Source: Candidatus Woesearchaeota archaeon (lineage in GTDB: Archaea > Nanobdellota > Nanobdellia > Woesearchaeales > UBA10216). Taken from it: a DNA stretch of 64,000 nucleotides. The position numbers and the translations under genes are program-made. The stretch is taken from assembly GCA_016188155.1 (NCBI GenBank), contig JACPIH010000002.1, forward strand, positions 68,655 through 132,654, given 5' to 3'. Below, piece by piece: positions 4,016 through 45,429 of the stretch; the first letter of the stretch is position 1; each line of letters begins with the position of its first letter. The notes below the pieces were generated by a model. It saw nothing but the letters and a program-made list of their open reading frames with translations, did not search any database and was not told the DNA's origin.

Positions 4016-7000
4016 ATGAACAAGAATTTATTGGTAATTTTGGCAATCATTTTAGCTGCAGTTCTGTTACCGATATTGGTTGAAGCTTTGCCAGTGATAG
4101 ATTCTGATGAGAGTTGGAACGTTAATGGCGGGACTATATTTGACAATGTTATCTGGACTGATGATAACATAGACTTCGAAGTAAATGGGATTAATGATGG
4201 CTCAGCAGACTTTGTTTGTGTGGATTGGAACAACGATGGAACTTTCGATAATTGCTATTACGATTCTAATGGCTGTACTTCAAGTTGCGGGGTAAATGAT
4301 TGCGATTTTTTCCCTATTCCTCAAAACATGAATGATGCCAATAAGGAAAGTTGCGATATTGAAGGAAGCTGTAAGGAAGGAGTTGACGTTGCACAAAGAG
4401 TATGTGATGGGTGTAGTGCGGTAGACACGTCCAATATTCAGAACACATACGTCAATGCTACTGTATACTACGATTGTGATAACTCGCAGAGTAACAGGCA
4501 CTCAGATTCACTGGCTAAGGTTGGTTTTTGGGTCATCAATCCCCAAAAGTTTGATTGTGATGCTGACGGTACCGAGGAAGCCGACAATTATAAGGCTGGT
4601 ACAGCTTATTACGACCTTGAAGGAAAGAACGGTAGCGGCAGCACGGATTGGAAAAACGTAAAAAGCGATTTAGGGTGCCCAGCATACAGGATTTGTGATC
4701 CTACCAGCAGCCATACAAATCATGATGATGAAGAAGTTACAACGAGAACAGGGATAATTCTGTCACCTTGCTCGCTTGAAGATGGCTCGACACTAAATCA
4801 CGTCTGCACTCAAAACGCCGATTGCTATTCCGGAAACTGCGGCGGCTGGGCTACTGATGAGAAACATGTATGCGTAACGGATGGAAGCAACAATTACTAC
4901 CAACAGTTTAAGTATACCAACAGGACTTGCGGAGGAGCAGGCTATACTGATGGCATATTTTATACTAATGCCACGCTTTCGTGCGCTGTAAAGGCAGGAC
5001 CAAGCTACGTCTGTGACTCAGACCATGATGAAAATGTCACAACAAACCCAACCACTCCTGCTTTACCATGCAAAAAAGCAGTTGGCCAACCTTGCTCCCA
5101 AGACAGCGACTGCTGGAACGACGATGGTGGTGTCTTATGCACATCAGGTTATTGCAAAGGGCTGCCAACTTACTGCACTGGCTCGATAGAAGTTCTTACC
5201 GAGGACAGCAGCGGCGCGCCCCTTTCCGGCTTAAGCGTTTACTGGAACGCTACATACAACGGCACCACGGATAGTCTTGGGCAAAGGATACTAAACCTTA
5301 ACGTCACATGCGGCTCTGACCAGAACGTTACGGTAAAGTGCTCCAATAACAGCACTGTTTGCGATACCAAGCTGACACAGATTGACAGCAGCGGCGACAT
5401 AGACTTCCTGTACTTTGAGTGCACAAAGTGCAGCCCGAAGAAGGACCTTTACGTTACGCAAAGTGATGTTTACGTTAACATAACAAGTAAGAGTGTGAAC
5501 GTTACAGTTCATTCTTCCAGCATAACGTCTAATGTGCAAGTTACGGTTTATAGACTGGACGAAGAAGGTGTCACAAAGGAAAGCAGTTCAACAACTATAT
5601 CACTGACTGCGGGTTCAGAAAAGAATGCCTCATTCACTTTAAGCAGTATCGCATCAACTGATTTCCTGCACATATACGTGGACTCCAATAACGCAGTAAA
5701 AGAGGACGACGAGACAAACAACTACGTTTTCAGGGCGGCAGTAAAACCGATTAAGGCCTATATTGACGTTAAGCTTGACCCTTCTTTCTCCATTCTGAAC
5801 GAGCTGGTAAAGGAATACATTGGCACTTTCGTGGAACCTTCAAGTTCTTCCCAAGCAGATGTCATAATCATTGTCGGGCACCCAAAAGTGTCCAATTCTG
5901 AGCCGTTCAATATAACTGGCACAATTATTGGCGGCGGTAAATCCATGCAGAAAGCATACGCTGGAGTTGTTAAAAAGGCTCCGGATTTTGTGAATAGTTA
6001 TTCTGGGAAGCCTGAAATATTAGTGTACGGCAACCAAATCCAGGGCGATATCGCTGCTGTGAAGCGCTTAATCAGTGCCAGAAGCATCTTTTTGGATAAA
6101 GGAACAAGCAGCAAATCGTATACCGTTTTTATTGATGACTACGACTCGTTAGGTATTTCCGTGATGGACCTTATGAGTAGGAACGAGACTAAAAAGCACA
6201 TGAAAAACAACAACATTACGTTAGCTAACGATGTTAGGAAGATTCTTTATGATAACAATTTTGAGGTTGCCGTGAAGCCTGTGAAGACGCTGAGCACCAC
6301 TTCGTATGGTAATTCGAGCATATTACGGGTCAAGAATGTAAATACTGATTTTTCTGTAAGTTATAAAGATGCTGTTGGTATCAGTAACTTTCCAGTAGTT
6401 TTTAGCGGTGGACTTTTTAGCCATTTAACTGCATGGGAAGGCAATGGTAAAGGGTTAGCCAAACAGATGGCCGGGGAAGGTTGGGACGTATGGGAAATAG
6501 AAATGACAGGAGGTCCCGATACCGATTGTAGTGTTTCAGATGTTGACACTTGTCCTAATTACGCTTACAGCGATTTGACAACGTACTTTTGGCCTGCACT
6601 AATTGCTGGAATTCAAAAATACTCGGGAAAAGGTCAGGTTGATTATGTGGGGCATAGTAATGGCTGCTTGGCGGCGCTAAGTGCGTTGAATAATTATTCC
6701 TTGTCTGGTAAAAATAATACTGGCTACTACTTTAACTATAACACGGGACAGTACTTATTCGTGAATCTCTCCTCAAACCCTGTGAGGAAGTTTGTAGGAG
6801 TGGCATGCCCCTCAGTTTTAGACGACAGCACAGCATATACGACTCTGGCAAGATTAAACAGCAAGTTTGGTAGTGGAACAGCCGGCGATGTGGCTATGAA
6901 TAAACTCGCTGGCAAAAAGCACGTAACAATGGGACAATACGCACAATACCTCGTTCCTAGCACACCCACCAAACTTGACGACTACGCCAGTTTCATACTA

Positions 7001-7300
7001 GCATTTGCAGGCGGGAAAAAAATCTCCTACAACCTTATGGACTTCTACAATGATTTGGCGGTAAGTAATTCAGATTCTATAAATTTGAGCGGACTAAACG
7101 TAAGCAAACTTTACCTGTTGGCAACAAATCCGGACGATTTCATAGTGTCCTACGACGATCAGCTTGAAATAAATGGTAGCGCTACAGCTCTAACAGCACC
7201 TAATAAAGAGATAATAACCTATCAGGGCATAACATTTAATCATATAGCGATTAAAGATAGGCCGACAGTAAAAGAAAAAATAAAAGAGAAATTAAAATGA
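4016..7300 (+). CDS. giant secreted surface protein with Cys-rich N-terminal region, CARDB-like domain(s) and a C-terminal alpha/beta-hydrolase (lipase/esterase-like, GHSNG) module
   Basis: Signal peptide; numerous N-X-S/T sequons; E..DETNN CARDB-like motif (DDETNNYVF); GHSNGC nucleophile-elbow-like motif (VDYVGHSNGCLAAL), later DDFIV and FNHIA (candidate Asp/His). Confidence 0.6.
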   Translation: MNKNLLVILAIILAAVLLPILVEALPVIDSDESWNVNGGTIFDNVIWTDDNIDFEVNGINDGSADFVCVDWNNDGTFDNCYYDSNGCTSSCGVNDCDFFPIPQNMNDANKESCDIEGSCKEGVDVAQRVCDGCSAVDTSNIQNTYVNATVYYDCDNSQSNRHSDSLAKVGFWVINPQKFDCDADGTEEADNYKAGTAYYDLEGKNGSGSTDWKNVKSDLGCPAYRICDPTSSHTNHDDEEVTTRTGIILSPCSLEDGSTLNHVCTQNADCYSGNCGGWATDEKHVCVTDGSNNYYQQFKYTNRTCGGAGYTDGIFYTNATLSCAVKAGPSYVCDSDHDENVTTNPTTPALPCKKAVGQPCSQDSDCWNDDGGVLCTSGYCKGLPTYCTGSIEVLTEDSSGAPLSGLSVYWNATYNGTTDSLGQRILNLNVTCGSDQNVTVKCSNNSTVCDTKLTQIDSSGDIDFLYFECTKCSPKKDLYVTQSDVYVNITSKSVNVTVHSSSITSNVQVTVYRLDEEGVTKESSSTTISLTAGSEKNASFTLSSIASTDFLHIYVDSNNAVKEDDETNNYVFRAAVKPIKAYIDVKLDPSFSILNELVKEYIGTFVEPSSSSQADVIIIVGHPKVSNSEPFNITGTIIGGGKSMQKAYAGVVKKAPDFVNSYSGKPEILVYGNQIQGDIAAVKRLISARSIFLDKGTSSKSYTVFIDDYDSLGISVMDLMSRNETKKHMKNNNITLANDVRKILYDNNFEVAVKPVKTLSTTSYGNSSILRVKNVNTDFSVSYKDAVGISNFPVVFSGGLFSHLTAWEGNGKGLAKQMAGEGWDVWEIEMTGGPDTDCSVSDVDTCPNYAYSDLTTYFWPALIAGIQKYSGKGQVDYVGHSNGCLAALSALNNYSLSGKNNTGYYFNYNTGQYLFVNLSSNPVRKFVGVACPSVLDDSTAYTTLARLNSKFGSGTAGDVAMNKLAGKKHVTMGQYAQYLVPSTPTKLDDYASFILAFAGGKKISYNLMDFYNDLAVSNSDSINLSGLNVSKLYLLATNPDDFIVSYDDQLEINGSATALTAPNKEIITYQGITFNHIAIKDRPTVKEKIKEKLK

Positions 7301-25591: not shown

Positions 25592-26284
25592 TCAAATTGG
25601 TTGTTGCAGCTTTTCCGCTGCCACAGAATTTGCCGATTGGGGTTCGCTGACTTCTTTAATCCTCTCATGCAAATATGATGCTATGAGATGGTGCACCATG
25701 AGGTGGCAGCTCTCTACCCTGCCATAATGGTTTGATTTCACAAGGACCGTATGGTCTGCTATGTTCATTAACTTTCCGCCATCAAAGCCGAGCAAGGCAA
25801 TGGTCTTGGCCCCAAACTTCTTGGCAAGCTCAACTCCCTTAATTACGTTTGGGGAATTGCCGCTTCCGCTAATGGCAATGACAACATCACCCTTATTTAC
25901 ATAATGGTTGAGCTGCTGGGAAAACATGTCATCATACGAAAGGTCATTTGCAAAAGCCGTCATTAAGGCAACGTTATCGGTCAGGGATATGACGCGAAAG
26001 CGCTTTTCCGTGTGGTCATAGACCCTTTGCAAAGTGCCTTTTGCTATGTCACAGGCGAAATGGGAGGCTGTTGAGGCACTCCCGCCATTCCCGAAGATAA
26101 AGACCTGCTTGCCTTCTTTCCATGCGTCGAACAGTACATCTACAACGTGCTTTACATCTTCAGGACGTATCGAGTCCATGTCTTTTTTCTCTTGTTCGAT
26201 GTAGTTCCTTATGTATTGGACCATTTTTGTCAGGCAGCTGGCAGCAGGGGCATGTTTAAAAATTTTGTGATAGCCAAGCCGCAC
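25592..26284 (-). CDS. gmhA: SIS-domain sedoheptulose-7-phosphate isomerase-like (GmhA-type)
   Basis: VFIFGNGGSASTASHFACD…ISGSGNSPNV…LLGFDGG…CHLMVHH matches short GmhA pattern. Confidence 0.7.
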   Translation of the reverse strand: MRLGYHKIFKHAPAASCLTKMVQYIRNYIEQEKKDMDSIRPEDVKHVVDVLFDAWKEGKQVFIFGNGGSASTASHFACDIAKGTLQRVYDHTEKRFRVISLTDNVALMTAFANDLSYDDMFSQQLNHYVNKGDVVIAISGSGNSPNVIKGVELAKKFGAKTIALLGFDGGKLMNIADHTVLVKSNHYGRVESCHLMVHHLIASYLHERIKEVSEPQSANSVAAEKLQQPI

Positions 26285-33316: not shown

Positions 33317-33445
33317 AGGAATAACGTCTGCTTTGAAACTTTGAAATCTTGCTGTCCCTGTTTGTTGTTGCTGTTTTCATACGTAGAAATATATTTAAAG
33401 AAAGGCTTTTAGCTGCATTCTCAGCTGTAGATTATCAGGTTAAAA

Positions 33446-35218
33446 ATGAAGCTGTCTGACTATGTCATAGAGTTTTTGGTGCAGCGTGGCGTTAGGCACG
33501 TTTTTCTTATATCCGGAGGAGCGGTTGCGCACCTTGTTGATTCTGCTGCCAGGAACCCAAAAATTACGTATGTTTGCCCAGAGCACGAGCAGAATGCCGG
33601 AGCAGCTGCTGACGCTTATTCAAGAATTACGGAGAACTTAGGCGCCGTCCTTACCACGAGCGGGCCTGGTGCCACTAACCTTGTGACGAGCGTTTGCAAT
33701 TCCTATTTTGACTCAATTCCTGTTATTTTCATCACAGGCCAGGTTGCAACATTTCGCATAAGACCCAACGAGAGGCTTCGCCAGAAGGGTTTTCAGGAAA
33801 CTGATGTTATTTCAATATTTAAGTCAATCACTAAGTACGCAACACAGCTTAGGAAGGCAGAGGACATTAAATGTGTCCTTCAGGAAGCAGTCTATGCAGC
33901 CACGTCAGGGCGCATGGGCCCTGTCCTAGTTGATATTCCAGATGACATTCAACGCGCCGAGATTGACCCTGATAAGCTACGTGAATTTGTTCCCCCCTCT
34001 GCTCACGCTAACAGCGATTTTTCGGCTGTTAAGGACATTTTTGCGGCAATAAGGTCTGCAAAAAGGCCTGTCCTGATTCTCGGAGCCGGCGTGAGGCTTT
34101 CTGGAACAATCCTTGAAGCTTTGAAGTTTGCAGAATACTTCCGAATTCCTCTCCTGCTTACCTGGGGAGCGACGGACATCGCAGAATACAGCCATGAGCT
34201 CAACATGGGCGGTCTTGGGGTTTGCGGCCCAAGAGGGGGTAACTTTGCAGCCCAGACATCAGACCTTGTTGTTGCACTTGGAACAAGGCTTTCACAGATG
34301 ATCACAGGCGGTAAGCAGAACCTTTTTGCACCTAACGCTAAGAAAATCATGGCAGACATTGATCCTGAAGAGCTTAACAAGTTCGGTCCGAATGATGTTG
34401 TTCTCGACTTGAAGATTCAGTGTGACTTGAGGGAGTTCTTTGCGGAGTGTGAAAGGCTCTACACCCCTGGCGAGAAGGACAGATTTATGGAATGGAGGCA
34501 GCAGATTAATGAATGGCGGAGAATATACCCAACCTGTCCTCAATCAAACTATGAAAAGAAGGAAGGTGTTGACGCCTATGTCTTCGTAAAGGAGCTTTCT
34601 AAGGCCGCAAATGAGGGGGATATGATATTTACCGATGCGGGCGGCAACCTGAGCCAGACCATGCAGGCCTTTGAGGTCAAGAAAAGGCAGCGGCTCATCT
34701 CCGCCTGGAACCACTCACCCATGGGCTATTCACTTCCTGCATGCATCGGTGCCGCATTTGCCCTCAGCAAGGACAGCAGCAATAACATCCTTTGCATCAT
34801 TGGCGATGGCGGTCTGATGCTGTGCCTCGAGGAGCTTTCCGTAATTGTGAAGCACAAGCTGCCGATCAAGATATTTATTTTCAACAACCACGGCCACGGA
34901 ATCCAGAAGCAGACTCTTGACACGTGGCTGAACTCTCACTACGTGGCTGTAGACGAAGCTTCTGGCCTCGCCTTTGCTGATTTTGACAAAATAGGCCCAG
35001 CTTTCGGACTTCCGACCGTTATCATAAGAAACCACGAAGAACTTAAGGCAAAACTCGACCAGGTTCTTGACATGAGAGGGCCTGTTTTGTGCAACGTTAA
35101 AATTGCTGTTGACCAGAGGATTGTGCCCATGCTCAAGTTTGGCGCAGGGCTCGAGGACCTTGACCCGAAGTTGCCAAGGGAGGATATAGAGTCTATCATG
35201 GCGATTGTTAAGGGTTAA
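33446..35218 (+). CDS. thiamine-diphosphate-dependent enzyme, acetolactate-synthase-large-subunit-like
   Basis: 590 aa; N-terminal TPP_enzyme_N pattern (GGAVAHLVDSAA…TSGPGATNLVT…), C-terminal GDGG…NN TPP-binding. Confidence 0.75.
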   Translation: MKLSDYVIEFLVQRGVRHVFLISGGAVAHLVDSAARNPKITYVCPEHEQNAGAAADAYSRITENLGAVLTTSGPGATNLVTSVCNSYFDSIPVIFITGQVATFRIRPNERLRQKGFQETDVISIFKSITKYATQLRKAEDIKCVLQEAVYAATSGRMGPVLVDIPDDIQRAEIDPDKLREFVPPSAHANSDFSAVKDIFAAIRSAKRPVLILGAGVRLSGTILEALKFAEYFRIPLLLTWGATDIAEYSHELNMGGLGVCGPRGGNFAAQTSDLVVALGTRLSQMITGGKQNLFAPNAKKIMADIDPEELNKFGPNDVVLDLKIQCDLREFFAECERLYTPGEKDRFMEWRQQINEWRRIYPTCPQSNYEKKEGVDAYVFVKELSKAANEGDMIFTDAGGNLSQTMQAFEVKKRQRLISAWNHSPMGYSLPACIGAAFALSKDSSNNILCIIGDGGLMLCLEELSVIVKHKLPIKIFIFNNHGHGIQKQTLDTWLNSHYVAVDEASGLAFADFDKIGPAFGLPTVIIRNHEELKAKLDQVLDMRGPVLCNVKIAVDQRIVPMLKFGAGLEDLDPKLPREDIESIMAIVKG

Positions 35219-35330: not shown

Positions 35331-36473
35331 ATGGATTTACTTGTTGCGAAGGGAAGGGACCTTAAGAAGGAGGAGTTTCATGACAAGCATGAGGCTTTTA
35401 CCGACAAGGCATACGCGGATGGCGACCTGCTGCCTGACAGGTATGTGTTTGTGCTCACCAACCTCTGCAACCTAAGGTGCAGTTTCTGCTTTCAGAAAAA
35501 GGACCCCAGGAAAGATGCCATGACTACCGAGGGCTGGATTAGCCTTGCAAAGCAGCTTCCTGAATACGCCAGGGTGACAATGACAGGCGGGGAGCCGTTG
35601 GCGTTTCGCGGCTTTAAAGAAGTGTTTTCCTACGTGGCTGAGCGTTTTGACTGCAACATGGTTTCAAACGGGTTGCTCTGGAAGGAGGAATTGGTTGATT
35701 TTGTCCTCTCGTATCCAAAATTCAGGGTGCTTTCCATTTCGATAGACAACATTGGCAACACGCTGAGGGACGTGAGCCCCAACCAGTGGAAGCGAGCTGA
35801 AGAGATGATGAGGTACTTTGTTAAAAAGCGGGATGAGCTCAATTCCGGCTGCGTGCTGGAGGCCAAAACAGTAGTGCTGGATGATAATGCCGAGGATTTG
35901 CTTGCAATTCACAAATACTGCATTGAAGAGCTTGGCTGCGACCACCACTCCTTCCAGTTTCTGAAGGGCTCGCCAATCCAGCACGCTGATTTTATGTTCC
36001 AATTTGAGGATATTTTGAAAGAGTCCCATGCCGTTACTTACAAAAAATTTGATATCATAAAGCAGCAGTTGGATCTGGTAAGAAAGTACAACCTTAAAAC
36101 AGGAAAGGTTGCCTTCTCGCACCCCATCATCGGCTCGTTGATGTCAGAAAATCCCCTTCCGAACATTTCATACCTGAATGAGAGCAGGCACATTAAGGGA
36201 AATTACATGCCCTGCAAATTTCCGTGGTCAAGCGTGCATATTAATGTTGACGGAAACCTTTTTCCGTGCATGGCAGTTTCAATGGGAAATGTTAAGGAAA
36301 CTCCCCTTCGTGACATAATATTTGGCGAGCAGTTTACGAGGTTTAAGCGGCTTATAAGGGACGAGGGCACTGTTGAGGGGTGTAACCGCTGTGGCTGGCT
36401 AAGGCCAATTCCGAACCTGCGGCAGCAGGAGCCGGAAAAGCAGGTGCAAGTGGCTGTGTCGGAAAGTGAATGA
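35331..36473 (+). CDS. radical SAM protein with SPASM/twitch-like C-terminal Cys cluster
   Basis: CNLRCSFC (CxxxCxxC); C-terminal CKFPW…CMAV…GCNRCGW. Confidence 0.75.
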   Translation: MDLLVAKGRDLKKEEFHDKHEAFTDKAYADGDLLPDRYVFVLTNLCNLRCSFCFQKKDPRKDAMTTEGWISLAKQLPEYARVTMTGGEPLAFRGFKEVFSYVAERFDCNMVSNGLLWKEELVDFVLSYPKFRVLSISIDNIGNTLRDVSPNQWKRAEEMMRYFVKKRDELNSGCVLEAKTVVLDDNAEDLLAIHKYCIEELGCDHHSFQFLKGSPIQHADFMFQFEDILKESHAVTYKKFDIIKQQLDLVRKYNLKTGKVAFSHPIIGSLMSENPLPNISYLNESRHIKGNYMPCKFPWSSVHINVDGNLFPCMAVSMGNVKETPLRDIIFGEQFTRFKRLIRDEGTVEGCNRCGWLRPIPNLRQQEPEKQVQVAVSESE

Positions 36474-36476
36474 TTT

Positions 36477-37379
36477 ATGCCAAAGAAAGTTGTTATTCTT
36501 GGCGCGTCTGGATTCGTCGGCGGCTGGCTGCTGAAGCGGTTCCTGTCAGATTCGCCGTATACGGCGGTTGGTTACTCATCTGCGGATTGCAACCTGCTCT
36601 CCCCGGGCTCGATTCGCAAAGCACTGTCATCTGTCACTTCAGAAGACGTTATCGTTATGCTGTCGTGCATTACACGCCTTAGGGAAAATTCGTTTGAGTC
36701 CATGCTTAAAAACATCAAGATGGCAGACAACATTGCCTGTTTTGTCGAGAGCCATCCTGTGTCCCATTTTATTTACTTTAACACTGTTGACGTTTATGGG
36801 CTGATTCCGGAGGGGACTGTTATAAGTGAGAGTCTTCCGCCAAATCCGCATGATTACTACTCAATTTCCAAGCTTACAAGCGAGTTTATTCTTAAAAAGG
36901 CGTTATCGGAGAAGAATATACCTTTCCTTTCGCTGAGGTTTTCCGGAATTTACTGCCCTGGCGATGAGGGAAAAAGTACTATCAACGCCTTGTTATATTC
37001 CCTTTTTGACACAGGAAAAATCACAATCTTCGGTGACGGGAAGAGTACCAGGGATTTTGTATACGTTGATGACGCTTACAGGATAGTGGAAGAGGCTGTC
37101 AAGCGGCCATTGAACGCAACTGTGAACGTAGCTACCGGGAAAAGTTATTCAATTCTTGAAGTAATAGAAACCATTAAGTCATTAATCGATAAAAAATTCA
37201 CTATCGAGTTCAAGCCAATAGACTCCAAAGCCGAGAAAAGGCAAGGGAATATGGTGCATGATATTTCCCTCTTTCAGAAGTTGTTTCCCAATTTCGTTTT
37301 TACAAGCCTTAAAGCAGGACTGTCCCGGAACATCAAGCACATTACAAGCATTACGAGCATTACAAGCAAAAAAGATTAA
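36477..37379 (+). CDS. NAD-dependent epimerase/dehydratase family protein
   Basis: KVVILGASGFVGGWL; YYSISK; C-terminal ITSITSITS encoded by 9-bp tandem repeat. Confidence 0.65.
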   Translation: MPKKVVILGASGFVGGWLLKRFLSDSPYTAVGYSSADCNLLSPGSIRKALSSVTSEDVIVMLSCITRLRENSFESMLKNIKMADNIACFVESHPVSHFIYFNTVDVYGLIPEGTVISESLPPNPHDYYSISKLTSEFILKKALSEKNIPFLSLRFSGIYCPGDEGKSTINALLYSLFDTGKITIFGDGKSTRDFVYVDDAYRIVEEAVKRPLNATVNVATGKSYSILEVIETIKSLIDKKFTIEFKPIDSKAEKRQGNMVHDISLFQKLFPNFVFTSLKAGLSRNIKHITSITSITSKKD

Positions 37380-38533
37380 ATCCTGTCAAATTCCTTTTTC
37401 AGTTCTGCGTAATTTTTGCATGTAACGTCAATGTATGCGGCACCAACATTTTTTGCAAACAACGCATCATCTTCGCTATCGCCTATTATGACGACCTTGT
37501 CAAAATCGCTGATGCTTATTCGCAACTCTTGAAGAGCATGGAGGAGCATACTAGGGCTGGGCTTCCTTCTCGTTTTTTTCTTTACAAAATCCGGATTGAA
37601 TTTAACTTCTTTTCGCAGGGCAGCATAGCTTGCATCAGCATCTGGGCAGTACTGCCAGCTGTCTATTGCAATCCCTTCTTCTTTCAATAACTTGCCTATG
37701 TGCCTGTTTACTTTTTCCACAGTTTCTGTGCCAAAATAGCCCCGCGCAACCCCTTGCTGGTTTGAAATTACCACCTTGACCGTGTCGTATTTTGTTTGTA
37801 CATAGCTGATAAGGTTGGTAACGTCTTTTTTTAGCCTTATCTGCTTTTCCCATAGCTTCTCTTTGCCGAGGAATGGCACATTTTCTATCAGGGTTCCGTC
37901 CCTGTCTATTCCCAACAGGAGCTTTTCCCGCTTTACTTTTTCCTGTATGTACCTGATTACATCTGTTGTCGACAGCTTCTCGTCATTTGTGTACCTGATT
38001 TCACCGCCTGCTGAGGTTATAGCCTCCCTCTCTGCGGTAATTCCTGGCGTTGTCTTGCCTATGAAATCTGGGCCTTTTATGTAATAAGACGGCTTCAGCT
38101 TTTCTATTACCTCAGTTGCACGCTCGAGGTCGCTGATAAACACGTAATCGACATACTCAATGCTTGCAACAGAGTAGGCCCGCAGTTTCTCTGAAAAGAT
38201 TGGCCTGCCGCTGCCTTTCCTTGCCGCCACGAATCTGTCCGAAGTCACAGATACGAAAAGACAGTCACACAGTTTTTTTGCTGACTCAAAGTGTTTAATG
38301 TGACCCGGATGCAAAAAGTCAAAGCCGCCGGCGCAAAGGCCTGCTTTTTTGTTTTGCCTCTTCAATTCAGAAATCCTCTTGGCCGCCGTGCCTATATCCA
38401 CTATTTTCTCAGACTTGAATTCATCAGTGTTTGCTTTCATAGTCTCCCAATCATCTTTCCTTGTCACTTTTGGCCGCCACCGCTTCAGCTTCCGAAATAA
38501 GCTCTGAAGAACATCTTCGGTATTGCTATGCAA
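37376..38533 (-). CDS. bifunctional protein: N-terminal cytidylyltransferase-like nucleotidyltransferase (RfaE/HldE domain II-like) fused to C-terminal HAD-IIIA GmhB-like heptose-bisphosphate phosphatase
   Basis: GGFDFLHPGHIKHFESAKKLCDCLFVSVTSD (HxGH nucleotidyltransferase); LLGIDRDGTLIEN, RKPSPSML, IGDSEDD (HAD-IIIA/GmhB); alternative start ATG at 38440 avoids overlap with upstream gene. Confidence 0.65.
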   Translation of the reverse strand: MHSNTEDVLQSLFRKLKRWRPKVTRKDDWETMKANTDEFKSEKIVDIGTAAKRISELKRQNKKAGLCAGGFDFLHPGHIKHFESAKKLCDCLFVSVTSDRFVAARKGSGRPIFSEKLRAYSVASIEYVDYVFISDLERATEVIEKLKPSYYIKGPDFIGKTTPGITAEREAITSAGGEIRYTNDEKLSTTDVIRYIQEKVKREKLLLGIDRDGTLIENVPFLGKEKLWEKQIRLKKDVTNLISYVQTKYDTVKVVISNQQGVARGYFGTETVEKVNRHIGKLLKEEGIAIDSWQYCPDADASYAALRKEVKFNPDFVKKKTRRKPSPSMLLHALQELRISISDFDKVVIIGDSEDDALFAKNVGAAYIDVTCKNYAELKKEFDRI

Positions 38534-39195
38534 ACCCCAATAATGTTCTTTACCCTGAAAATGTTTGTCGCCGAGCCCTCCTCCTCCTGAATCAGCACTG
38601 GCACCTCAAGGTAAGAATGCTTCTGCTTGCTCTTAAGCAACTGAAGTAATACCTCTGCATGAAAAGCAAAGCTGCTTGTTGTTATTTTAACCTGCCTGGC
38701 CAGGCTGAGCTTATAAAGTGCCAGGCCGTTATAGTACTTTACGTTCAGGCCAAATAGTAAATTCAGCATGGTTGTATAAAGGGTTGAAACAAGTCTCCTT
38801 ACAATTGGCCTTACTTCAGGATTCATAGTATAGGAATTCAGAATGTCGGCATCACCTATCCTTCCAAGCATCCGCGCAATAGATTCTGCCGGTATTCCGT
38901 TATCGCCTGTCAGCAACATAATGTATTCTTTAGTGGCAAGCCTTATGGCTTCCCTGTACACCGCACCCGGCCCGCGGTTCGTTTTAAAATGAACTACCCT
39001 TATTCTTGGGTTCCTTTTGGCAAAATCTTCTGCAATTGCGCCTGAACTGTCCCTGCTACCGTCGTCAATTACGATTAGCTCATAATCAGCAACAAAGCGT
39101 TTTACAGTGTCATTTATAGTTGTAATTGAGTTGCCTAAGTTACGCTCCTCGTTGTAGGCTGGTACTATCAGGGTTATTGATGCCGCTTTTTTCAT
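38485..39195 (-). CDS. glycosyltransferase family 2, dolichyl/polyprenyl-phosphate sugar synthase-like (Dpm1/ArnC-type)
   Basis: ITLIVPAYNEERNL…LIVIDDGSRD…; 236 aa; paralog of 47754..48536. Confidence 0.75.
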   Translation of the reverse strand: MKKAASITLIVPAYNEERNLGNSITTINDTVKRFVADYELIVIDDGSRDSSGAIAEDFAKRNPRIRVVHFKTNRGPGAVYREAIRLATKEYIMLLTGDNGIPAESIARMLGRIGDADILNSYTMNPEVRPIVRRLVSTLYTTMLNLLFGLNVKYYNGLALYKLSLARQVKITTSSFAFHAEVLLQLLKSKQKHSYLEVPVLIQEEEGSATNIFRVKNIIGVCIAIPKMFFRAYFGS

Positions 39196-39307
39196 GCTTG
39201 CCCAATCTCAGAATGATTTTGCGAAGCTTTAAAAACTTTTTTGTGGCATTTGCCACGTTAAAAAGGCCTTTCCAGCTTCTTATTATTATGCTGTCACATA
39301 GTCATAG

Positions 39308-41191
39308 TCATATTTTGTATATCCTTATTCTGTTCCTATGGTACAGCAGATTGGCTTGAGCTTCGTCCTCTGTCAGGTTGTGCACCAACGTAATGGCTTT
39401 GCTGCCATTAATGGTGTTTCTGTATATGTCAAATAAGTCATCATTAATTAGGATGTGACTGATGTTGAGATCCTTCAGCCGCCTTAATAAGTCTGTAGTA
39501 TTGCTCATGCTCCAGTAGTCGATGTAATTCTGGTGGGGTGAGCTTATAACGTATTCCCTGTTTAGGAAATAGCCCCTTGGCTCGTTAAACAGCAGCACTA
39601 CAGAATCTGGTGTTGTGTTGGCATTTATCCAGGAAGCTGCGCCGTGAGCGTTGTAGTCTTTAAGCTGGTCATAGTATTCACCTTCACTTTCTCCAGACAA
39701 AAAGTAGTTGACACTCTTCGCGTTTATACCATACCATATTGCGGCATTAAATGCTAGCGAAACTATAAGCATCAAGAAAATGGCTGCTTTTAGTATCCTA
39801 TACTTGGACATTGAATCAATAACCATGGCTGTGGCCGCGCTTAACAAGGCTATTCCTGGGAACATGTACCTCAGCACAGGGTGGACCCAGAACTGTACCA
39901 TAAGGATGGCCGTGGCCATTACAAAGATTATGCTCCACGCTCTTATGTCCTTAACACCCTTGTAAAAGAAAATCAGCAGGGGTATTATCATGATGAAGAA
40001 TGGCGTGAGACCGATAACGGTGCCAAACGGCTTGCTGTTGAAGGTTATGTTCCAGTGCACAAGCAGGACGTTGGCCATGTTTTTGCCAAGGCCGACATAC
40101 TTATGATACGCTTCGTACGCGATGTCGTGCGAGGGCAAAAGGTAGTTCCCGCCAAAGATGCTGTGGCCTAAGGGGTAAACAGGGTTGCCTGTGTGAATGT
40201 AGCTTCTTGCGAGCCAGGGCATAGTGAGAAGCAGCACAACAGCAGCCAGCAGGAAAATCTCGATGCACGCTTGTTTTACGTTGACCTCTTTCTTGTACAG
40301 CAGCCTCGACAGCACCATGCCTATTACAAAGGCAAAGGCAACAAAGACGCCTGTCAGCTTTACAGCCGTTGCTAATCCTATCAGAATTCCGCATAACAGC
40401 GTCAGCAAAATTCTTCGGCGGCTGTCACTTTCATGGGCGTACTTGAACAGGACCAGGACAGCTGCGAGGAAGAAGTAAGCCACGCTTATGTCAACCATTG
40501 TCTGCGGCAAGCGCTCAATCATCACAGGCGCTGTAAAAAAAAGCAGAACCCCTGTTATCGCTGCTGATTCTGAGCTTTTTTTCCTGATAAGCGCGTATAT
40601 CGCGAGGCTAGCGAGGATGCCGAACGAGTAAGCTATGAGGGGCGAAAGATTTGGCGTTGAGAAAAGCTCTGAGATTGTGTACAGCATCGTCATGCCTTGT
40701 GGCATCGTTGTGTACATCTGGCTTGGCTGGTAAACGAGGCTGTGGCTACCGGCGTACACTTTCGCAAACGCGAGATGGTAAACCATTGAGTCAAACTCGT
40801 ACACTGGCGAAAGGGCGGGGATAAAGTTGATAAGTACGAAAAATATGCACGCGAGGAGCAGCACGCCAGCCAGGGTTGGCTTTAGCGTTTGCCTAATGTA
40901 TTTGCCAAGCAACATGGCAAGCTGGCAGAAGCGCTTTACTTCTTTGAAAAAAAGCACAACAGCTACTACGGCCATTGCGATGTAAAATCCACTGTAAAGC
41001 AGCTTGAACGTGCCTAGCAGGATTGTCAGGTTCATTATAACGCCTGCCCCTAATGCAACGCTGATGAGAAATTCCTCAAGTTTGCCAAGGTCTGTTTTGA
41101 ATATTGCAAGTATTCTCCTGCCGATGCTAAAAGTAACCACTAAAAATATGAGCAGCATGGTAAGGCTTACAATGGAAATTAGCAAAGACAA
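39308..41191 (-). CDS. GT-C fold membrane glycosyltransferase (ArnT/PMT-like, GT39/GT83-type), TTG start in current frame
   Basis: 627 aa, about 12 TM helices then about 180-aa C-terminal soluble domain; no WWDYG (not STT3/AglB). Confidence 0.55.
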   Translation of the reverse strand: MSLLISIVSLTMLLIFLVVTFSIGRRILAIFKTDLGKLEEFLISVALGAGVIMNLTILLGTFKLLYSGFYIAMAVVAVVLFFKEVKRFCQLAMLLGKYIRQTLKPTLAGVLLLACIFFVLINFIPALSPVYEFDSMVYHLAFAKVYAGSHSLVYQPSQMYTTMPQGMTMLYTISELFSTPNLSPLIAYSFGILASLAIYALIRKKSSESAAITGVLLFFTAPVMIERLPQTMVDISVAYFFLAAVLVLFKYAHESDSRRRILLTLLCGILIGLATAVKLTGVFVAFAFVIGMVLSRLLYKKEVNVKQACIEIFLLAAVVLLLTMPWLARSYIHTGNPVYPLGHSIFGGNYLLPSHDIAYEAYHKYVGLGKNMANVLLVHWNITFNSKPFGTVIGLTPFFIMIIPLLIFFYKGVKDIRAWSIIFVMATAILMVQFWVHPVLRYMFPGIALLSAATAMVIDSMSKYRILKAAIFLMLIVSLAFNAAIWYGINAKSVNYFLSGESEGEYYDQLKDYNAHGAASWINANTTPDSVVLLFNEPRGYFLNREYVISSPHQNYIDYWSMSNTTDLLRRLKDLNISHILINDDLFDIYRNTINGSKAITLVHNLTEDEAQANLLYHRNRIRIYKI

Positions 41192-41444: not shown

Positions 41445-42494
41445 ATGGATAGGGCGAAAGCAGAAGCTATTGAAAGAATAAGGTCACAGTATTCACTCGA
41501 GCGTTTAAAACAAATGCTTGATAAATTTAGAAATTTGAAAATCCTGGTGATTGGCGATGCCATCATAGACGAGTATCATTTCACTACCCCGAAAGGCAGG
41601 GCAGTAAAGGACCCTATCCTTTCTGTCGACTACATTAAGCACGAGGCCTATGCAGGTGGAGTGTTTGCCATAGCAAACCACTTGAGTGATTTTGCAGATA
41701 GCGTTACTTTGCTTACAATGCTTGGAGACAGGGACGACAGGAAAGATTTTATTGCCAACGCACTCAACAAGAATATAGTTACTAAATTTTTTGTCAAACA
41801 AAATTCTCCTACGACAGTTAAAAAGCGGTATTTGAATGCCCTTCGAAATGAAAAGCTGTTCAAGGTCGAATACCTAAACGATGCCCCCATATCGGAGGAA
41901 CTTGAAAGAAGCATACTCAACTTCTTGATTGAGGAACTGCCTAAATTTGACTTGGTCGTGGTAGGTGATTTTGGCCACAGCCTCATTACAGAAAACATGA
42001 TAAACGTGTTGGAGGGAAAATCAAATTACATCACCGTAAACGTCCAATCCAATAGTGCAAATCTCGGTTTTAACTTTGTTACAAAGTATAAATCCCCAAA
42101 TTACGTCACTATGGACATACCTGAGCTTCAATATGCCGTGTCTGACAGATTCAACGAAGTGCCTGTGCTGGCTGCAAAGCTTTATGCCAAGACGCGTTTC
42201 AAAAAATTTTTGGTAACAATGGGCGGGGCCGGCGCTGGCTACTTCAATGCGGGCAGACCAACATTTTTCCCTGCATTTGCGAGCAGGCCGCTGGACGTTG
42301 TTGGCGCTGGCGATGCGGTTTTTTCCATTACCTCACTGCTCGCTTACTGCAATTACGATGAGCTAATACCATTTATTGCCAATTGTGTTGGCGGCATTGC
42401 CGTTTCCTACATGGGAAACAAGGAGTACATAACAAAAAAGAAGCTGCTTGACTTTATTGAGCAAGTTTACAACGGGGATGTTCATATGCAGTAA
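41445..42494 (+). CDS. PfkB-family carbohydrate kinase, RfaE/HldE domain I-like (candidate heptose-7-phosphate kinase)
   Basis: ILVIGDAIIDEYHF…AYAGGVFAIANHL…; C-terminal VVGAGDAVFS (GAGDA PfkB motif). Confidence 0.6.
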   Translation: MDRAKAEAIERIRSQYSLERLKQMLDKFRNLKILVIGDAIIDEYHFTTPKGRAVKDPILSVDYIKHEAYAGGVFAIANHLSDFADSVTLLTMLGDRDDRKDFIANALNKNIVTKFFVKQNSPTTVKKRYLNALRNEKLFKVEYLNDAPISEELERSILNFLIEELPKFDLVVVGDFGHSLITENMINVLEGKSNYITVNVQSNSANLGFNFVTKYKSPNYVTMDIPELQYAVSDRFNEVPVLAAKLYAKTRFKKFLVTMGGAGAGYFNAGRPTFFPAFASRPLDVVGAGDAVFSITSLLAYCNYDELIPFIANCVGGIAVSYMGNKEYITKKKLLDFIEQVYNGDVHMQ

Positions 42495-43623: not shown

Positions 43624-43662
43624 TTTCCAAAACTTTAATGTATGTTGCTTGTGGTTGTTTGC

Positions 43663-44705: not shown

Positions 44706-45098
44706 TTAAACAGTTGAATAAGCCAGGAGACTTACGCCCAGAATTATGCTTGAAATGCCAAGCCACTTGAACCTGTTCATCCTTTCCCTGAGGAACTTCA
44801 TTGAAAGCAGAGAGACCCAGATGTAAGTAAGGGAGGTAATCGGATAAACCAAGGAAAGGCTCGCATTCTTCAAGGCCCACAGGTAAACAGGGGTTGGAGC
44901 TGCGTAAAGGAACACGCCAACAAGAAGGTTTGTATTTTTTATAATGCCTCGCAGTTGCTTAAGAATATCAATGGAAAGCGAAAACTCTGAAGCGCCTTTC
45001 TTAAAGAACAAGGCCCCAAACGCTGCTGTAACCGTAAAGACAGCTACAATCCCCGCAACCACTATTGTTTCAACCATGCTCAGCACCGTAACCAACAA
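44706..45098 (-). CDS. small 4-TM SMR/EamA-like membrane protein (ArnE/ArnF-like half-transporter)
   Basis: 130 aa; …SLVYPITSLTYIWVSLLS…GISSIILGVSLLAY pattern; paired with similar neighbour. Confidence 0.5.
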   Translation of the reverse strand: MLVTVLSMVETIVVAGIVAVFTVTAAFGALFFKKGASEFSLSIDILKQLRGIIKNTNLLVGVFLYAAPTPVYLWALKNASLSLVYPITSLTYIWVSLLSMKFLRERMNRFKWLGISSIILGVSLLAYSTV

Positions 45099-45429
45099 GG
45101 CTCACTCCAAGAACTATAAAGCCAACTCCAGCCCAGCTTATCAGCGGCAGCCTCTCGCTAAAAAAGAAAAAAGCTACAAGAGCAACCCATATGTAGCTTA
45201 AACCAATGAAAGGGTAAACAACTGAAAGTTCTGCGCGCTTCAAGGCACACATGAGCAGGATTGCCGCTATGAGGTAAAAAAACAATCCAATAAGAACAGG
45301 ATAGTTTGTAATAAGAGCTAAAGGCTCAAGCCTCAGCGAACCAGCGCCAAGCTTGTACAGGTACTGCCCTGCTGTTGAAAAAACGGTGAACAGAACCATT
45401 AACACAATGGCAAAAGACCTTGTTTTCAT
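45070..45429 (-). CDS. small 4-TM SMR/EamA-like membrane protein (ArnE/ArnF-like partner)
   Basis: 119 aa; …SVVYPFIGLSYIWVALVAFFFFSERL…GFIVLGVSLVGYG. Confidence 0.5.
   Translation of the reverse strand: MKTRSFAIVLMVLFTVFSTAGQYLYKLGAGSLRLEPLALITNYPVLIGLFFYLIAAILLMCALKRAELSVVYPFIGLSYIWVALVAFFFFSERLPLISWAGVGFIVLGVSLVGYGAEHG

What the first reader, a model, noticed from the sequence alone, without database searches (positions are those of the whole stretch)
37376..38533. Novel domain arrangement: heptose-1-phosphate nucleotidyltransferase-like domain fused to GmhB-like phosphatase
The N-terminal half carries the HxGH cytidylyltransferase-like signature (GGFDFLHPGHIKHF…VSVTSD) seen in HldE/RfaE domain II. 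The C-terminal half carries HAD-IIIA/GmhB motifs (IDRDGTLIEN, RKPSPSML, IGDSEDD).

In canonical bacterial ADP-heptose synthesis, HldE fuses the kinase to the adenylyltransferase and GmhB is separate. Here the kinase is a stand-alone PfkB protein (41445..42494), and the phosphatase is fused to the nucleotidyltransferase. That fusion joins consecutive pathway steps 3 and 4.
Basis: partly seen in the sequence, partly recalled or inferred. Interest (0 to 1): 0.7.

Follow-up and report, generated by a model that had tools for sequence, protein, structure and literature searches.

The report
Fused heptose nucleotidyltransferase–phosphatase in Woesearchaeota
This archaeal gene joins two consecutive enzymes of the nucleotide-activated heptose sugar pathway into one protein; the arrangement is common in tiny DPANN archaea, was not found described in the papers available here, and is an interesting variant rather than a surprise.

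Summary
An intact minus-strand ORF (37376..38533; the real start is probably 38467 or 38440) encodes an N-terminal HxGH nucleotidyltransferase joined by about 4 residues to a C-terminal HAD-IIIA phosphatase.

Sequence profiles, an AlphaFold model (pLDDT 94) and two fold searches each pick the ADP-heptose enzymes as closest relatives. These are HldC/HldE domain II for the N-half and GmhB for the C-half.

The window also holds one HldE-type PfkB kinase (41445..42494) and one GmhA-like isomerase (25592..26284). Relatives carry the same four domains in many permutations, which links them to one pathway.

The protein is 100% identical to a Candidatus Woesearchaeota record named only "HAD-IIIA family hydrolase". 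It has well over a hundred full-length homologues in DPANN archaea, so it is not unique. The three nucleotidyltransferase architectures summarised from Tang et al. 2024 do not include it.

This DPANN branch is diverged. It scores below the curated HldE-II and GmhB cut-offs, and the GmhB zinc-binding cap (CxH…CxC) is replaced by a longer cysteine-poor loop.

Most likely function: dephosphorylate heptose 1,7-bisphosphate, then nucleotidylate heptose-1-phosphate, feeding the adjacent GT2/GT-C glycosylation genes. Verdict: new variant of a known kind, moderate interest.

The parts
37376..38467 (-). Fusion gene as called in public records (363 aa, GTG start). The alternative ATG at 38440 gives 354 aa.
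37943..38371 (-). N-terminal HldC / HldE-domain-II-like nucleotidyltransferase domain (residues 55-197 of the 385-aa ORF).
   Evidence: - rfaE_dom_II: 104.9 bits.
- CTP_transf_like: 58 bits.
- Foldseek top hit HldC 5xf2, E 2.8e-11.
- Family profile to HldC: 88.9 bits.
38300..38311 (-). HPGH (HxGH) nucleotide-binding motif.
   Evidence: Coordinates. Of the 119 homologues, the first His and the Gly are invariant, and the Pro and second His are at least 90% conserved.
37964..37975 (-). LSTT motif, the C-terminal signature of the cytidylyltransferase-like fold. It lacks the Arg at position 5 of the published (F/L)xxGxSTT motif.
   Evidence: motif definition from PMC11573728.
37424..37915 (-). C-terminal HAD-IIIA (GmhB-like) phosphatase domain (residues 207-370 of the 385-aa ORF).
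   Evidence: - TIGR01656: 86.9 bits, cut-off 84.15.
- HAD-SF-IIIA: 71.9 bits, cut-off 44.6.
- GmhB models: 52-61 bits, below cut-off.
- Foldseek E 1.2e-9.
37892..37906 (-). HAD motif I, DRDGT (nucleophile Asp and general acid/base Asp).
   Evidence: Invariant in 119 homologues; coordinates.
37739..37765 (-). HAD motif II region, SNQQGVARG (compare GmhB TNQSGIARG).
37559..37651 (-). Cap loop from YCPD to RRKP (motif III Lys). It stands in place of the GmhB/HisB-N zinc-binding CxH…CxC cap, is about 9 residues longer, and lacks the CxC cysteines.
   Evidence: Column statistics; alignment to E. coli GmhB; zinc-cap definition from PMC9798254.
37466..37483 (-). HAD motif IV, GDSEDD.
   Evidence: The Gly and the last Asp are invariant. 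The first Asp is D in 83 and N in 36 of 119 homologues.
41445..42494 (+). Stand-alone PfkB kinase, HldE-domain-I-like (proposed heptose-7-phosphate 1-kinase, step 2).
   Evidence: - PfkB domain.
- rfaE_dom_I is the best family: 121 bits, cut-off 345.
- It scores 150-290 bits against the kinase halves of NTase-PfkB proteins.
25592..26284 (-). GmhA-like SIS isomerase (proposed sedoheptulose-7-phosphate isomerase, step 1).
   Evidence: - tblastn lead.
- TIGR00441 gmhA is the best family: 119.8 bits, cut-off 209.
- SIS_2 domain.
38485..39195 (-). GT2 glycosyltransferase immediately upstream on the same strand. It is the proposed user of the nucleotide sugar.
   Evidence: GT2 immediately precedes the fusion gene in L001-L003, L084, L086 and L087.
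39308..41191 (-). 627-aa membrane protein with a PMT_2 (GT-C) domain, same strand, upstream of GT2.
   Evidence: Membrane proteins of similar size (628 and 629 aa, no Pfam hit on record) lie near GT2 in L084 and L086, and a 515-aa PMT_2 protein lies in L087.
44706..45429 (-). Two small overlapping EamA/SMR-like membrane ORFs (44706..45098 and 45070..45429). They may form a flippase pair.
   Evidence: The same pair sits next to the large membrane protein in L084 and L086.
36477..37379 (+). Convergent SDR epimerase/dehydratase whose 3' end overlaps the fusion gene by 4 nt. It is a candidate nucleotide-sugar modifying enzyme.
   Evidence: weak similarity to ADP-heptose 6-epimerase, 55.6 bits, and to dTDP-glucose dehydratase.

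Best explanation

Proposed route:
1. The GmhA-like isomerase (25592..26284) converts sedoheptulose-7-P to heptose-7-P.
2. The stand-alone PfkB kinase (41445..42494) makes heptose 1,7-bisphosphate.
3. The C-terminal HAD-IIIA domain removes the 7-phosphate, using Asp nucleophile chemistry (DRDGT, SNQ, RKP, GDxxDD).
4. The N-terminal HxGH domain, about 4 residues away in sequence, transfers an NMP from an NTP onto heptose-1-P to give NDP-heptose.
5. The product, possibly after modification by neighbouring SDR and aminotransferase enzymes, is used by the co-oriented GT2. By analogy with ArnC/ArnE-F/ArnT it would then pass through a polyprenyl-phosphate carrier, a small EamA pair and a GT-C enzyme to a cell-surface acceptor.

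What is shown:
- the domain identities and intact catalytic motifs;
- the closest sequence and structure relatives;
- the conserved gene neighbourhood and domain-fusion network.

What is inferred:
- the sugar identity and the nucleotide used;
- the order of the two reactions;
- any substrate channelling;
- the lipid-carrier route.
For: 1. Both halves are real and look catalytically intact.
- The HxGH, RKGxGRP, KGPD and STT motifs, and HAD motifs I-IV, are invariant or at least 90% conserved in 119 homologues.

2. The best family for each half is the heptose enzyme.
- N-half: rfaE_dom_II 104.9 bits, against 37 for TagD.
- C-half: GmhB models 60.8 and 52.2 bits, against 47.1 and 43.6 for HisB.
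- Family profiles against PDB sequences: HldC 88.9 bits is the best single domain; GmhB 51.3 bits against 42 for HisB-N.

3. Structure agrees.
- The AlphaFold2 model has pLDDT 94.2.
- Foldseek ranks HldC first, then E. coli GmhB.

4. The window holds exactly one copy of each of the four pathway activities.

5. The neighbourhood is conserved.
- A PfkB kinase lies within 10 kb in 7 of 8 fusion loci, and GmhA within about 11 kb in 4 of 8.
- In L086 the genes GT2, fusion, SIS and PfkB are contiguous.
- In L084 a PfkB-SIS fusion supplies the other two steps.

6. Domain fusions in relatives link the four activities.
- HAD-NTase, PfkB-NTase-HAD, HAD-NTase-PfkB, NTase-PfkB and NTase-PfkB-SIS all occur.
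- Several pass NCBI's curated cut-offs: P0150 for both rfaE_dom_II (208 bits, cut-off 181.5) and GmhB (169.5, cut-off 149.6); P0177 for the kinase (361, cut-off 345) and GmhB (190.9, cut-off 178).
- These proteins align end to end with the window protein at 32-38% identity.

7. Literature precedent.
- Archaeal NDP-heptose enzymes have been shown active in vitro (PMC11573728, PMC11461863).
- A heptose occurs in a Thermoplasma N-glycan (PMC11407970).
Against: - All four candidate enzymes score below the NCBIfam equivalog cut-offs: rfaE_dom_II 105 against 181.5, GmhB 52-61 against 150-178, rfaE_dom_I 121 against 345, and gmhA 120 against 209.
- The HAD domain lacks the zinc-binding CxH…CxC cap that characterises GmhB and HisB-N. 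It has a longer loop and an extra GKxxxW insertion instead, so its substrate pocket may differ.
- The STT region departs from the published (F/L)xxGxSTT motif.
- GmhA lies 11 kb away, not adjacent.
- One fusion locus (L085) has no kinase or isomerase within 10 kb.
- Closely related Woesearchaeota loci (L006, L007) carry an unfused NTase with no HAD-IIIA gene nearby, so the phosphatase half is not always needed in cis.
- There are no biochemical data for any member of this branch.
Confidence: 0.72

Rival explanations
1. The chemistry is the same but the sugar is different. The kinase, phosphatase and nucleotidyltransferase set activates a sugar other than D-glycero-D-manno-heptose, such as another ketose-derived aldose bisphosphate or a higher-carbon or branched sugar. 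The product would be a nucleotide sugar not yet described.
For: - All four enzymes fall well below the curated heptose-pathway cut-offs.
- The HAD cap that contacts substrate in GmhB is remodelled and has no zinc site.
- The DPANN HAD branch separates from canonical GmhB-type domains with 100% bootstrap support in a rough NJ tree.
- The surrounding conserved cluster is unusually rich in tailoring enzymes whose product is unknown: E1 alpha/beta, an ALS-like TPP enzyme, a radical SAM enzyme, two DegT aminotransferases and several SDRs.
Against: - Three independent best hits (isomerase, kinase, NTase) all point to the heptose enzymes, and no other sugar pathway scores better.
- Canonical-scoring relatives share the same architecture.
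- Tailoring enzymes normally act after nucleotide activation, so they do not argue against a heptose start.
Confidence: 0.13
2. The substrates are the same but the order is reversed. The nucleotidyltransferase acts first on heptose 1,7-bisphosphate to give NDP-heptose-7-phosphate, and the fused HAD domain removes the 7-phosphate afterwards.
For: - The fusion itself cannot tell the two orders apart.
- The enlarged zinc-less cap could in principle accommodate a bulkier nucleotide-linked substrate.
- Related loci with an unfused NTase and no nearby HAD (L006, L007) show that the NTase can be encoded without a dedicated phosphatase next to it.
Against: - In the characterised pathway, as summarised in PMC11573728, the phosphatase step precedes nucleotidyl transfer (isomerase, kinase, phosphatase, nucleotidyltransferase).
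- Nothing in the sequence specifically supports a nucleotide-binding cap.
Confidence: 0.07
3. The two halves have unrelated or non-heptose housekeeping roles. For example, the N-half could be a RibL-type FMN adenylyltransferase or a TagD-type glycerol-3-P cytidylyltransferase, joined to a histidinol-phosphate or generic sugar phosphatase.
For: - The N-half also matches the generic cytidylyltransferase family, namely TagD, ECT and the Thermoplasma protein 3glv.
Against: - These alternatives score much lower: TagD 37 bits and a FAD-synthase relative 17 bits against 105 for rfaE_dom_II, and HisB-N 43.6 bits against a 140-bit cut-off.
- No riboflavin, teichoic-acid or histidine genes lie nearby.
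- The conserved neighbours are GT2, PfkB and SIS.
- The fusion partners seen across relatives are always heptose-pathway domains.
Confidence: 0.04

Closest known systems
[quoted passage not shown]
   Same: - Same cytidylyltransferase-like Rossmann fold.
- Same HxGH, KG..RP, KG(G/P)D and STT motifs.
- Best sequence-family and structural match for the N-half.
- Associated with a PfkB heptose kinase and GmhA.
   Different: - It scores 105 bits against a 181.5-bit cut-off.
- It is fused to a phosphatase rather than a kinase, or standing alone.
- The STT region reads (T/N)xDxKLSTT instead of (F/L)xxGxSTT, with no Arg at position 5.
- In a rough tree it sits in a DPANN clade separate from classical HldE.
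[quoted passage not shown]
   Same: - HAD-IIIA fold with motifs DxDGT, (S/T)NQxG(I/V)ARG, RKP and GDxxxD.
- Best specific sequence models.
   Different: - It scores 52-61 bits against cut-offs of 150-178.
- The zinc-binding CxH…CxC cap is replaced by CPD…KTKRKP, about 9 residues longer.
- There is an extra conserved GKxxxW insertion after motif I.
- It is fused to the next enzyme of the pathway.
Published NDP-heptose nucleotidyltransferase ('HENase') architectures of Tang et al. 2024: mono-domain NTase, kinase/NTase (HldE), isomerase/kinase/NTase
   Same: Same pathway and the same NTase family. Archaeal members were shown to be active (PMC11573728, PMC11461863).
   Different: The window protein pairs the NTase with the phosphatase, an architecture not among the three listed. 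I read only the two commentaries; the primary paper and the tri-domain paper were not available.
Canonical-type NTase/GmhB fusions in CPR bacteria and other uncultured organisms (e.g. P0186, EKD49868.1, NTase-HAD; P0150, HAD-NTase; P0177, PfkB-NTase-HAD in Nanoarchaeota)
   Same: They have the same two activities in one polypeptide, and P0186 has the same domain order. They align with the window protein over both halves at 32-38% identity.
   Different: - Their halves reach or approach the curated HldE-II and GmhB cut-offs.
- They keep the CPH…CxCRKP zinc motifs.
- Both of their halves fall in clades separate from the window's branch, so the fusion probably arose independently.
ArnC / ArnE-ArnF / ArnT lipid-carrier glycosylation module (recalled from knowledge of the E. 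coli/Salmonella L-Ara4N pathway)
   Same: The neighbours of the fusion gene have the same parts list: a short GT2, two small EamA/SMR-like membrane proteins, and a large GT-C (PMT_2) membrane protein.
   Different: Similarity is only at the family level (ArnC model 40.5 bits against a 529-bit cut-off). The acceptor and carrier lipid are unknown, and the context is archaeal. This is an analogy, not a membership claim.

Membership tests
HldC / HldE domain II (TIGR02199 rfaE_dom_II) | HxGH nucleotide-binding motif and the C-terminal STT motif of the cytidylyltransferase-like fold | tested here: met
   HPGH lies at 38300..38311 and LSTT at 37964..37975. Both are invariant or at least 90% conserved in 119 homologues.
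HldC / HldE domain II (TIGR02199 rfaE_dom_II) | Score at or above the curated equivalog-domain cut-off (181.5 bits) | tested here: not met
   It scores 104.9 bits. A reverse-order fusion relative, P0150, reaches 208 bits.
HldC / HldE domain II (TIGR02199 rfaE_dom_II) | Closer to the heptose NTases than to other cytidylyltransferase-like families (TagD, ECT/CCT, RibL-like, PPAT) | tested here: met
   - NCBIfam: 105 bits against 37 or less for the others.
- Family profile against PDB: HldC 88.9, 3glv 73.9, ECT domain 1 70.2, TagD 61.6.
- Foldseek rank 1.
HldC / HldE domain II (TIGR02199 rfaE_dom_II) | Published (F/L)xxGxSTT motif of heptose nucleotidyltransferases (Arg at position 5 marks NTP promiscuity) | tested here: not met
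   The family consensus is YTxDxKLSTT. Position 1 is not F/L, position 4 is K rather than G, and position 5 is L rather than R. Motif definition from PMC11573728.
HldC / HldE domain II (TIGR02199 rfaE_dom_II) | Genomic or fusion association with a heptose-7-P kinase (PfkB) and GmhA | tested here: met
   PfkB lies 3 kb away and GmhA 11 kb away in the window. PfkB lies within 10 kb in 7 of 8 fusion loci. Relatives carry fusions with PfkB and SIS.
HldC / HldE domain II (TIGR02199 rfaE_dom_II) | [quoted passage not shown] | not testable with these tools
   This needs an enzyme assay.
GmhB (TIGR00213 / PRK08942) | HAD motifs I-IV (DxDGT; S/T; K; GDxxxD) and HAD-IIIA/histidinol-phosphatase-type domain membership | tested here: met
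   All motifs are present and conserved. TIGR01656 scores 86.9 bits (cut-off 84.15) and TIGR01662 scores 71.9 (cut-off 44.6).
GmhB (TIGR00213 / PRK08942) | Score at or above the curated GmhB cut-offs (149.6 / 178 bits) | tested here: not met
   It scores 52.2 and 60.8 bits. Relatives P0150, P0186 and P0177 do pass.
GmhB (TIGR00213 / PRK08942) | [quoted passage not shown] | tested here: not met
   The window has YCPD…(24 aa)…KTRRKP. CxH has become CPD, both CxC cysteines are absent, and the loop is about 9 residues longer. Feature definition from PMC9798254.
GmhB (TIGR00213 / PRK08942) | Closest solved structure and sequence is GmhB rather than HisB-N or another HAD | tested here: met
- Foldseek: E 1.2e-9 against 6e-7.
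- Profile: 51.3 bits against 42.
The direction is consistent but the margin is narrow.
GmhB (TIGR00213 / PRK08942) | 7-phosphatase activity on heptose 1,7-bisphosphate | not testable with these tools
   This needs an enzyme assay.
HisB-N histidinol-phosphate phosphatase (TIGR01261) | Curated cut-off (140 bits), a zinc cap with 5-residue spacing, and a histidine-biosynthesis context | tested here: not met
   It scores 43.6 bits. There is no CxH/CxC cap. No his genes were found among the annotated neighbours.
Published HENase architecture types (mono-domain; kinase/NTase; isomerase/kinase/NTase) | The domain composition matches one of the three listed types | tested here: not met
   The composition is NTase plus HAD phosphatase. 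The three types are as listed in PMC11573728 and PMC11461863.

The most novel reading that the evidence does not exclude
The DPANN branch represented here has a zinc-less, enlarged-cap phosphatase and a divergent nucleotidyltransferase. It may not make ordinary ADP-D,D-heptose. It may instead make a different nucleotide sugar, with another nucleotide and/or a modified or different sugar bisphosphate. That sugar would be further tailored by the conserved E1 alpha/beta, TPP-enzyme, radical-SAM and aminotransferase cluster. It would then be delivered through an Arn-like polyprenyl-phosphate route (GT2, EamA pair, GT-C) to the cell surface. This would define a lineage-specific surface-glycosylation pathway in Woesearchaeota. 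The fused enzyme might also channel the sugar-1-phosphate intermediate between its two active sites.
Probability: 0.15. Interest if true: 0.6.

Novelty: new variant of a known kind. Interest (0 to 1): 0.4.

Why it matters
- **Annotation.** Well over a hundred DPANN proteins currently labelled "HAD-IIIA family hydrolase" or "rfaE … nucleotidyltransferase chain/domain" would get a specific, testable function.
- **Classification.** It would add a fourth architecture (NTase/phosphatase), plus its permutations, to the published scheme of NDP-heptose synthetases.
- **Biology of DPANN archaea.** These genome-reduced archaea appear to keep a complete heptose-activation pathway next to a lipid-carrier-type glycosylation module. 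That bears on their cell-surface chemistry and host interaction.
- **Immunology.** NDP-heptoses are ALPK1 agonists, so their wider distribution in archaea is of some interest.
- **Enzymology.** The zinc-less GmhB-like cap is a natural experiment on what the zinc loop contributes. The short linker between consecutive enzymes offers a simple system for testing substrate channelling.
- **Limits.** Fusion of consecutive pathway enzymes is a common evolutionary event, so a specialist would find this useful rather than startling.

Tried and rejected
- **FAD synthetase or TagD-type assignment for the N-half.** Rejected on scores: 17 and 37 bits against 105, supported by structure ranks.
- **HisB-N identity for the C-half.** It scores lower everywhere and has no his context, but the structural margin is small, so I keep it as a minor rival.
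- **Assembly or frameshift artefact.** Rejected. The same continuous two-domain ORF occurs in more than 100 independent assemblies.
- **The 385-aa reading from TTG 38533.** Rejected as the likely start, because it overlaps the GT2 gene and homologues start 22-31 codons later.
- **Bacterial promoter/terminator scan.** Counts were no better than shuffles, and the model does not apply to an archaeon.
- **Genome-contig scan as a census of the fusion.** It returned mostly NTase-PfkB proteins and cannot count fusions, though it was useful for context.
- **afdb50 fold library.** Unavailable.
- **Primary papers.** Tang et al. 2024 Science and the tri-domain paper were not held, so the 'three architectures' statement rests on two commentaries.
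- **Literature searches for a prior description of an NTase-GmhB fusion or of heptose synthesis in Woesearchaeota/DPANN.** Nothing relevant was found. One search failed on syntax.
- **NJ trees.** They have low internal support and are used only for the well-supported splits.


Full report
**1. The observation**

The minus-strand ORF 37376..38533 is real: 385 aa from a TTG.

Pfam places a cytidylyltransferase-like domain at residues 66-194 and HAD hydrolase models at the C-terminus. NCBIfam gives these scores:
- rfaE_dom_II: 104.9 bits, residues 55-197
- TIGR01656 histidinol-phosphatase-type domain: 86.9 bits (cut-off 84.15)
- HAD-SF-IIIA: 71.9 bits (cut-off 44.6)
- GmhB models: 60.8 and 52.2 bits
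- HisB models: 47.1 and 43.6 bits
- TagD: 37.2 bits
- A FAD-synthase relative: 17.3 bits

The 5' end needs correcting. The TTG start overlaps the upstream GT2 gene, whose stop is at 38485. Public gene calls use GTG 38467 (363 aa). Most homologues begin at the position of ATG 38440 (354 aa).

**2. Source organism and abundance**

The protein is 100% identical to a record from a Candidatus Woesearchaeota archaeon named "HAD-IIIA family hydrolase". The word-indexed search found 389 relatives with E at most 1e-5. The best 120 are almost all 346-388 aa, that is, full-length fusions. They come from Woesearchaeota/Nanoarchaeota and carry only generic names, including JGI's [quoted passage not shown].

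The exhaustive search of 1.84 billion representatives found 3,849 proteins with E at most 1e-10. At least 20 clusters at 50% identity have the NTase-then-HAD order. The arrangement is therefore real and common in DPANN archaea. It is neither an artefact nor a one-off.

**3. Identity of each half**

Catalytic motifs. In an alignment of 119 homologues the catalytic motifs of both halves are invariant or nearly so:
- N-half: HxGH, RKGxGRP, KGPD, STT
- C-half: DRDGT, SNQxGVAR, RKP, G(D/N)xxDD

Sequence matches to solved structures. A profile of the N-half matches B. pseudomallei HldC best as a single domain:
- HldC: 88.9 bits
- 3glv: 73.9 bits
- ECT domain 1: 70.2 bits
- TagD: 61.6 bits

A profile of the C-half gives E. 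coli GmhB 51.3 bits, the M. loti HAD 2o2x 51.4 bits, and HisB-N 42 bits.

Structure. An AlphaFold2 model built on the 119-sequence alignment has mean pLDDT 94.2 and pTM 0.74. The last NTase helix ends about 4 residues before the first HAD strand.
- Foldseek against the PDB ranks HldC first (E 2.8e-11), then E. coli GmhB (1.2e-9), with HisB-N at 6e-7.

Every method therefore picks the two ADP-heptose enzymes. The GmhB-over-HisB-N margin is narrow.

**4. Pathway context**

The established route is isomerase, kinase, phosphatase, then nucleotidyltransferase (PMC11573728). The window contains exactly one candidate for each remaining step:
- A GmhA-like SIS protein at 25592..26284. TIGR00441 is its best family at 119.8 bits.
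- A stand-alone PfkB kinase at 41445..42494. rfaE_dom_I is its best family at 121 bits.

The fusion gene is the last of three co-oriented genes: GT-C membrane protein, GT2, fusion.

In relatives on long contigs the neighbourhood recurs:
- L086: EamA, EamA, a 629-aa membrane protein, GT2, fusion, SIS and PfkB are contiguous.
- L084: GT2 then the fusion, with a PfkB-SIS fusion protein 4 kb away.
- L087: E1 alpha/beta, GT2, fusion and PfkB, followed by the same tailoring genes as the window.
- L088: the fusion is followed by an NTase-PfkB protein.
- L005 (a Nanoarchaeota single-cell genome): the fusion, with GmhA and PfkB 2 kb away.

Overall, PfkB lies within 10 kb in 7 of 8 fusion loci. L085 is the exception.

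**5. Domain-fusion network**

Relatives combine the same four domains in many ways:
- HAD-NTase (P0150)
- PfkB-NTase-HAD (P0167, P0177)
- HAD-NTase-PfkB (P0199)
- NTase-PfkB (many proteins of about 500 aa)
- NTase-PfkB-SIS (P0234)

These occur in Nanoarchaeota and in CPR/Patescibacteria. Several pass NCBI's curated thresholds:
- P0150: both HldE domain II (208 bits, cut-off 181.5) and GmhB (169.5, cut-off 149.6).
- P0186, an NTase-HAD protein from a CPR bacterium: GmhB (151.8, cut-off 149.6).
- P0177: the kinase (361, cut-off 345) and GmhB (190.9, cut-off 178).

This ties NTase/HAD-IIIA fusions to the heptose pathway independently of the window's own weak scores.

**6. How the window's branch differs**

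It is a diverged DPANN lineage. The GmhB/HisB-N hallmark is a zinc-binding cap built from CxH and CxC motifs (PMC9798254). Here that cap is replaced by YCPD…(24 aa)…KT(K/R)RKP. The loop is about 9 residues longer, has only the first cysteine, and contains conserved W, Y-A and F-x3-F-V-K positions. A GKxxxW insertion follows motif I. Canonical-type fusions keep CPH…CxCRKP.

The STT region (YTxDxKLSTT) departs from the published (F/L)xxGxSTT motif and lacks the Arg linked to CTP/UTP promiscuity. The nucleotide used therefore cannot be predicted.

Rough NJ trees separate the DPANN HAD type from the canonical type with 100% support, and place the DPANN NTases apart from classical HldE. Within the DPANN clade, fused and unfused forms interleave. 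For example, the stand-alone NTases of L006 and L007 group with the window protein in a 100%-supported clade. The NTase-HAD architecture therefore arose at least twice, and it has been gained or lost repeatedly.

**7. Mechanism proposed**

- Shown: a two-domain protein with intact catalytic motifs of a HAD phosphatase and an HxGH nucleotidyltransferase. It is most similar to GmhB and HldC, and it is embedded with a GmhA-like isomerase, an HldE-type kinase and glycosyltransferases.
- Inferred: the HAD half removes the 7-phosphate of heptose 1,7-bisphosphate. The NTase half then converts heptose-1-P to NDP-heptose, so consecutive steps 3 and 4 sit in one polypeptide. The product feeds the adjacent GT2 and, by analogy with ArnC/ArnEF/ArnT, a lipid-carrier route through the EamA pair (44706..45429) and the GT-C protein.

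I put 0.72 on the NDP-heptose reading. The rivals are:
- a different sugar with the same chemistry (0.13);
- reversed reaction order (0.07);
- unrelated housekeeping roles (0.04).

**8. Novelty and score**

The protein family is abundant in public data under generic names. Fusions of consecutive enzymes are commonplace.

Even so, I found no description of an NTase/GmhB fusion in the searchable literature. The published scheme lists only mono-domain, kinase/NTase and isomerase/kinase/NTase types. The zinc-less cap is also a genuine departure from GmhB.

I rate it a new variant of a known kind, interest 0.4.

Noticed in passing
L014 9977-12015; L020 9983-12014; L021 8484-10525; L033 2605-4705; L038 9938-11976 (bacterial loci): There is a recurrent gene trio: stand-alone NTase, NTase-PfkB, GmhA. 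In these clusters the PfkB-fused NTase domain reads HPGI/HPGT/HPGV instead of HPGH, so the second His of HxGH is lost. The adjacent stand-alone NTase keeps HPGH. Single NTase-PfkB proteins (L009, L039, L048) keep HPGH. This looks like a degenerate pseudo-enzyme domain backed up by a paralogue.
   Followed up: partly
P0161 (609 aa) and P0181 (618 aa), from the representative search: These proteins have the NTase-HAD didomain followed by a histidine-kinase-type HATPase_c domain. This is an unexpected link between a heptose-pathway enzyme and a signalling ATPase.
   Followed up: no
window 27669-35218 and 42532-47642; also L087 and L088: A conserved Woesearchaeota gene set surrounds the heptose genes:
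- methyltransferase
- Zn-ADH
- short-chain dehydrogenase
- beta-PGM-like HAD
- class-V aminotransferase
- a GHMP kinase that passes the NCBIfam homoserine-kinase cut-off (252 bits, cut-off 194)
- an acetolactate-synthase-like TPP enzyme
- PDH-E1 alpha/beta-like pair
- two DegT aminotransferases

The product is unknown. From memory, the TPP/E1 enzymes recall two-carbon branching of nucleotide sugars.
   Followed up: partly
window 38485-41191 and 44706-45429; L084 and L086: An Arn-like parts list lies next to the fusion gene: a short GT2, a large GT-C/PMT_2 membrane protein, and a pair of small EamA/SMR-like membrane proteins. This suggests a polyprenyl-phosphate-sugar route to the cell surface.
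   Followed up: partly
L084 14915-16588; P0234: Other fusions of the same pathway occur: a PfkB-SIS protein (557 aa) in a Woesearchaeota-type locus, and an NTase-PfkB-SIS protein (764 aa). In L084 two genes cover all four steps.
   Followed up: partly
L009-L048 (many bacterial phyla, Thermoplasmatota, Nanoarchaeota): There is a large clade of about 510-aa NTase-PfkB proteins, whose domain order is the reverse of E. coli HldE. The window's kinase scores 150-290 bits against their kinase halves, but only 30-57 bits against classical PfkB-NTase HldE of alphaproteobacteria.
   Followed up: partly
L006 9932-10507; L007 4037-4567: Close Woesearchaeota relatives carry the NTase unfused (about 55-63% identity to the window's N-half), with PfkB and/or GmhA nearby. 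No HAD-IIIA gene is detected on the fetched DNA. Stand-alone versions of the zinc-less HAD also exist (P0138-P0143).
   Followed up: partly
P0135 (362 aa): Here the NTase domain is fused to an AAA_33/P-loop kinase-like domain instead of a HAD domain.
   Followed up: no
window 35331-36473: A radical SAM/SPASM protein sits two genes downstream of the fusion, inside the sugar cluster. Radical SAM genes also recur in L084 and L086. Its role is unknown.
   Followed up: no
window 1-4000 and 6001-12000: Composition is uneven. AT skew is +0.33 and +0.22 in the first 4 kb. G+C drops to 0.37-0.39 between 6 and 12 kb, against about 0.44-0.50 elsewhere. The low-G+C stretch includes part of a 1094-aa ORF (4016..7300).
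   Followed up: no
window 49530-50282, 50290-51615, 51711-52511, 20154-21179: More nucleotide-sugar genes lie in the same island: two NTP_transferase-family enzymes, a UDP-glucose/GDP-mannose dehydrogenase, and a strong GDP-mannose 4,6-dehydratase-family match (433 bits). The region from 19 to 52 kb is therefore one large glycan-biosynthesis island.
   Followed up: no
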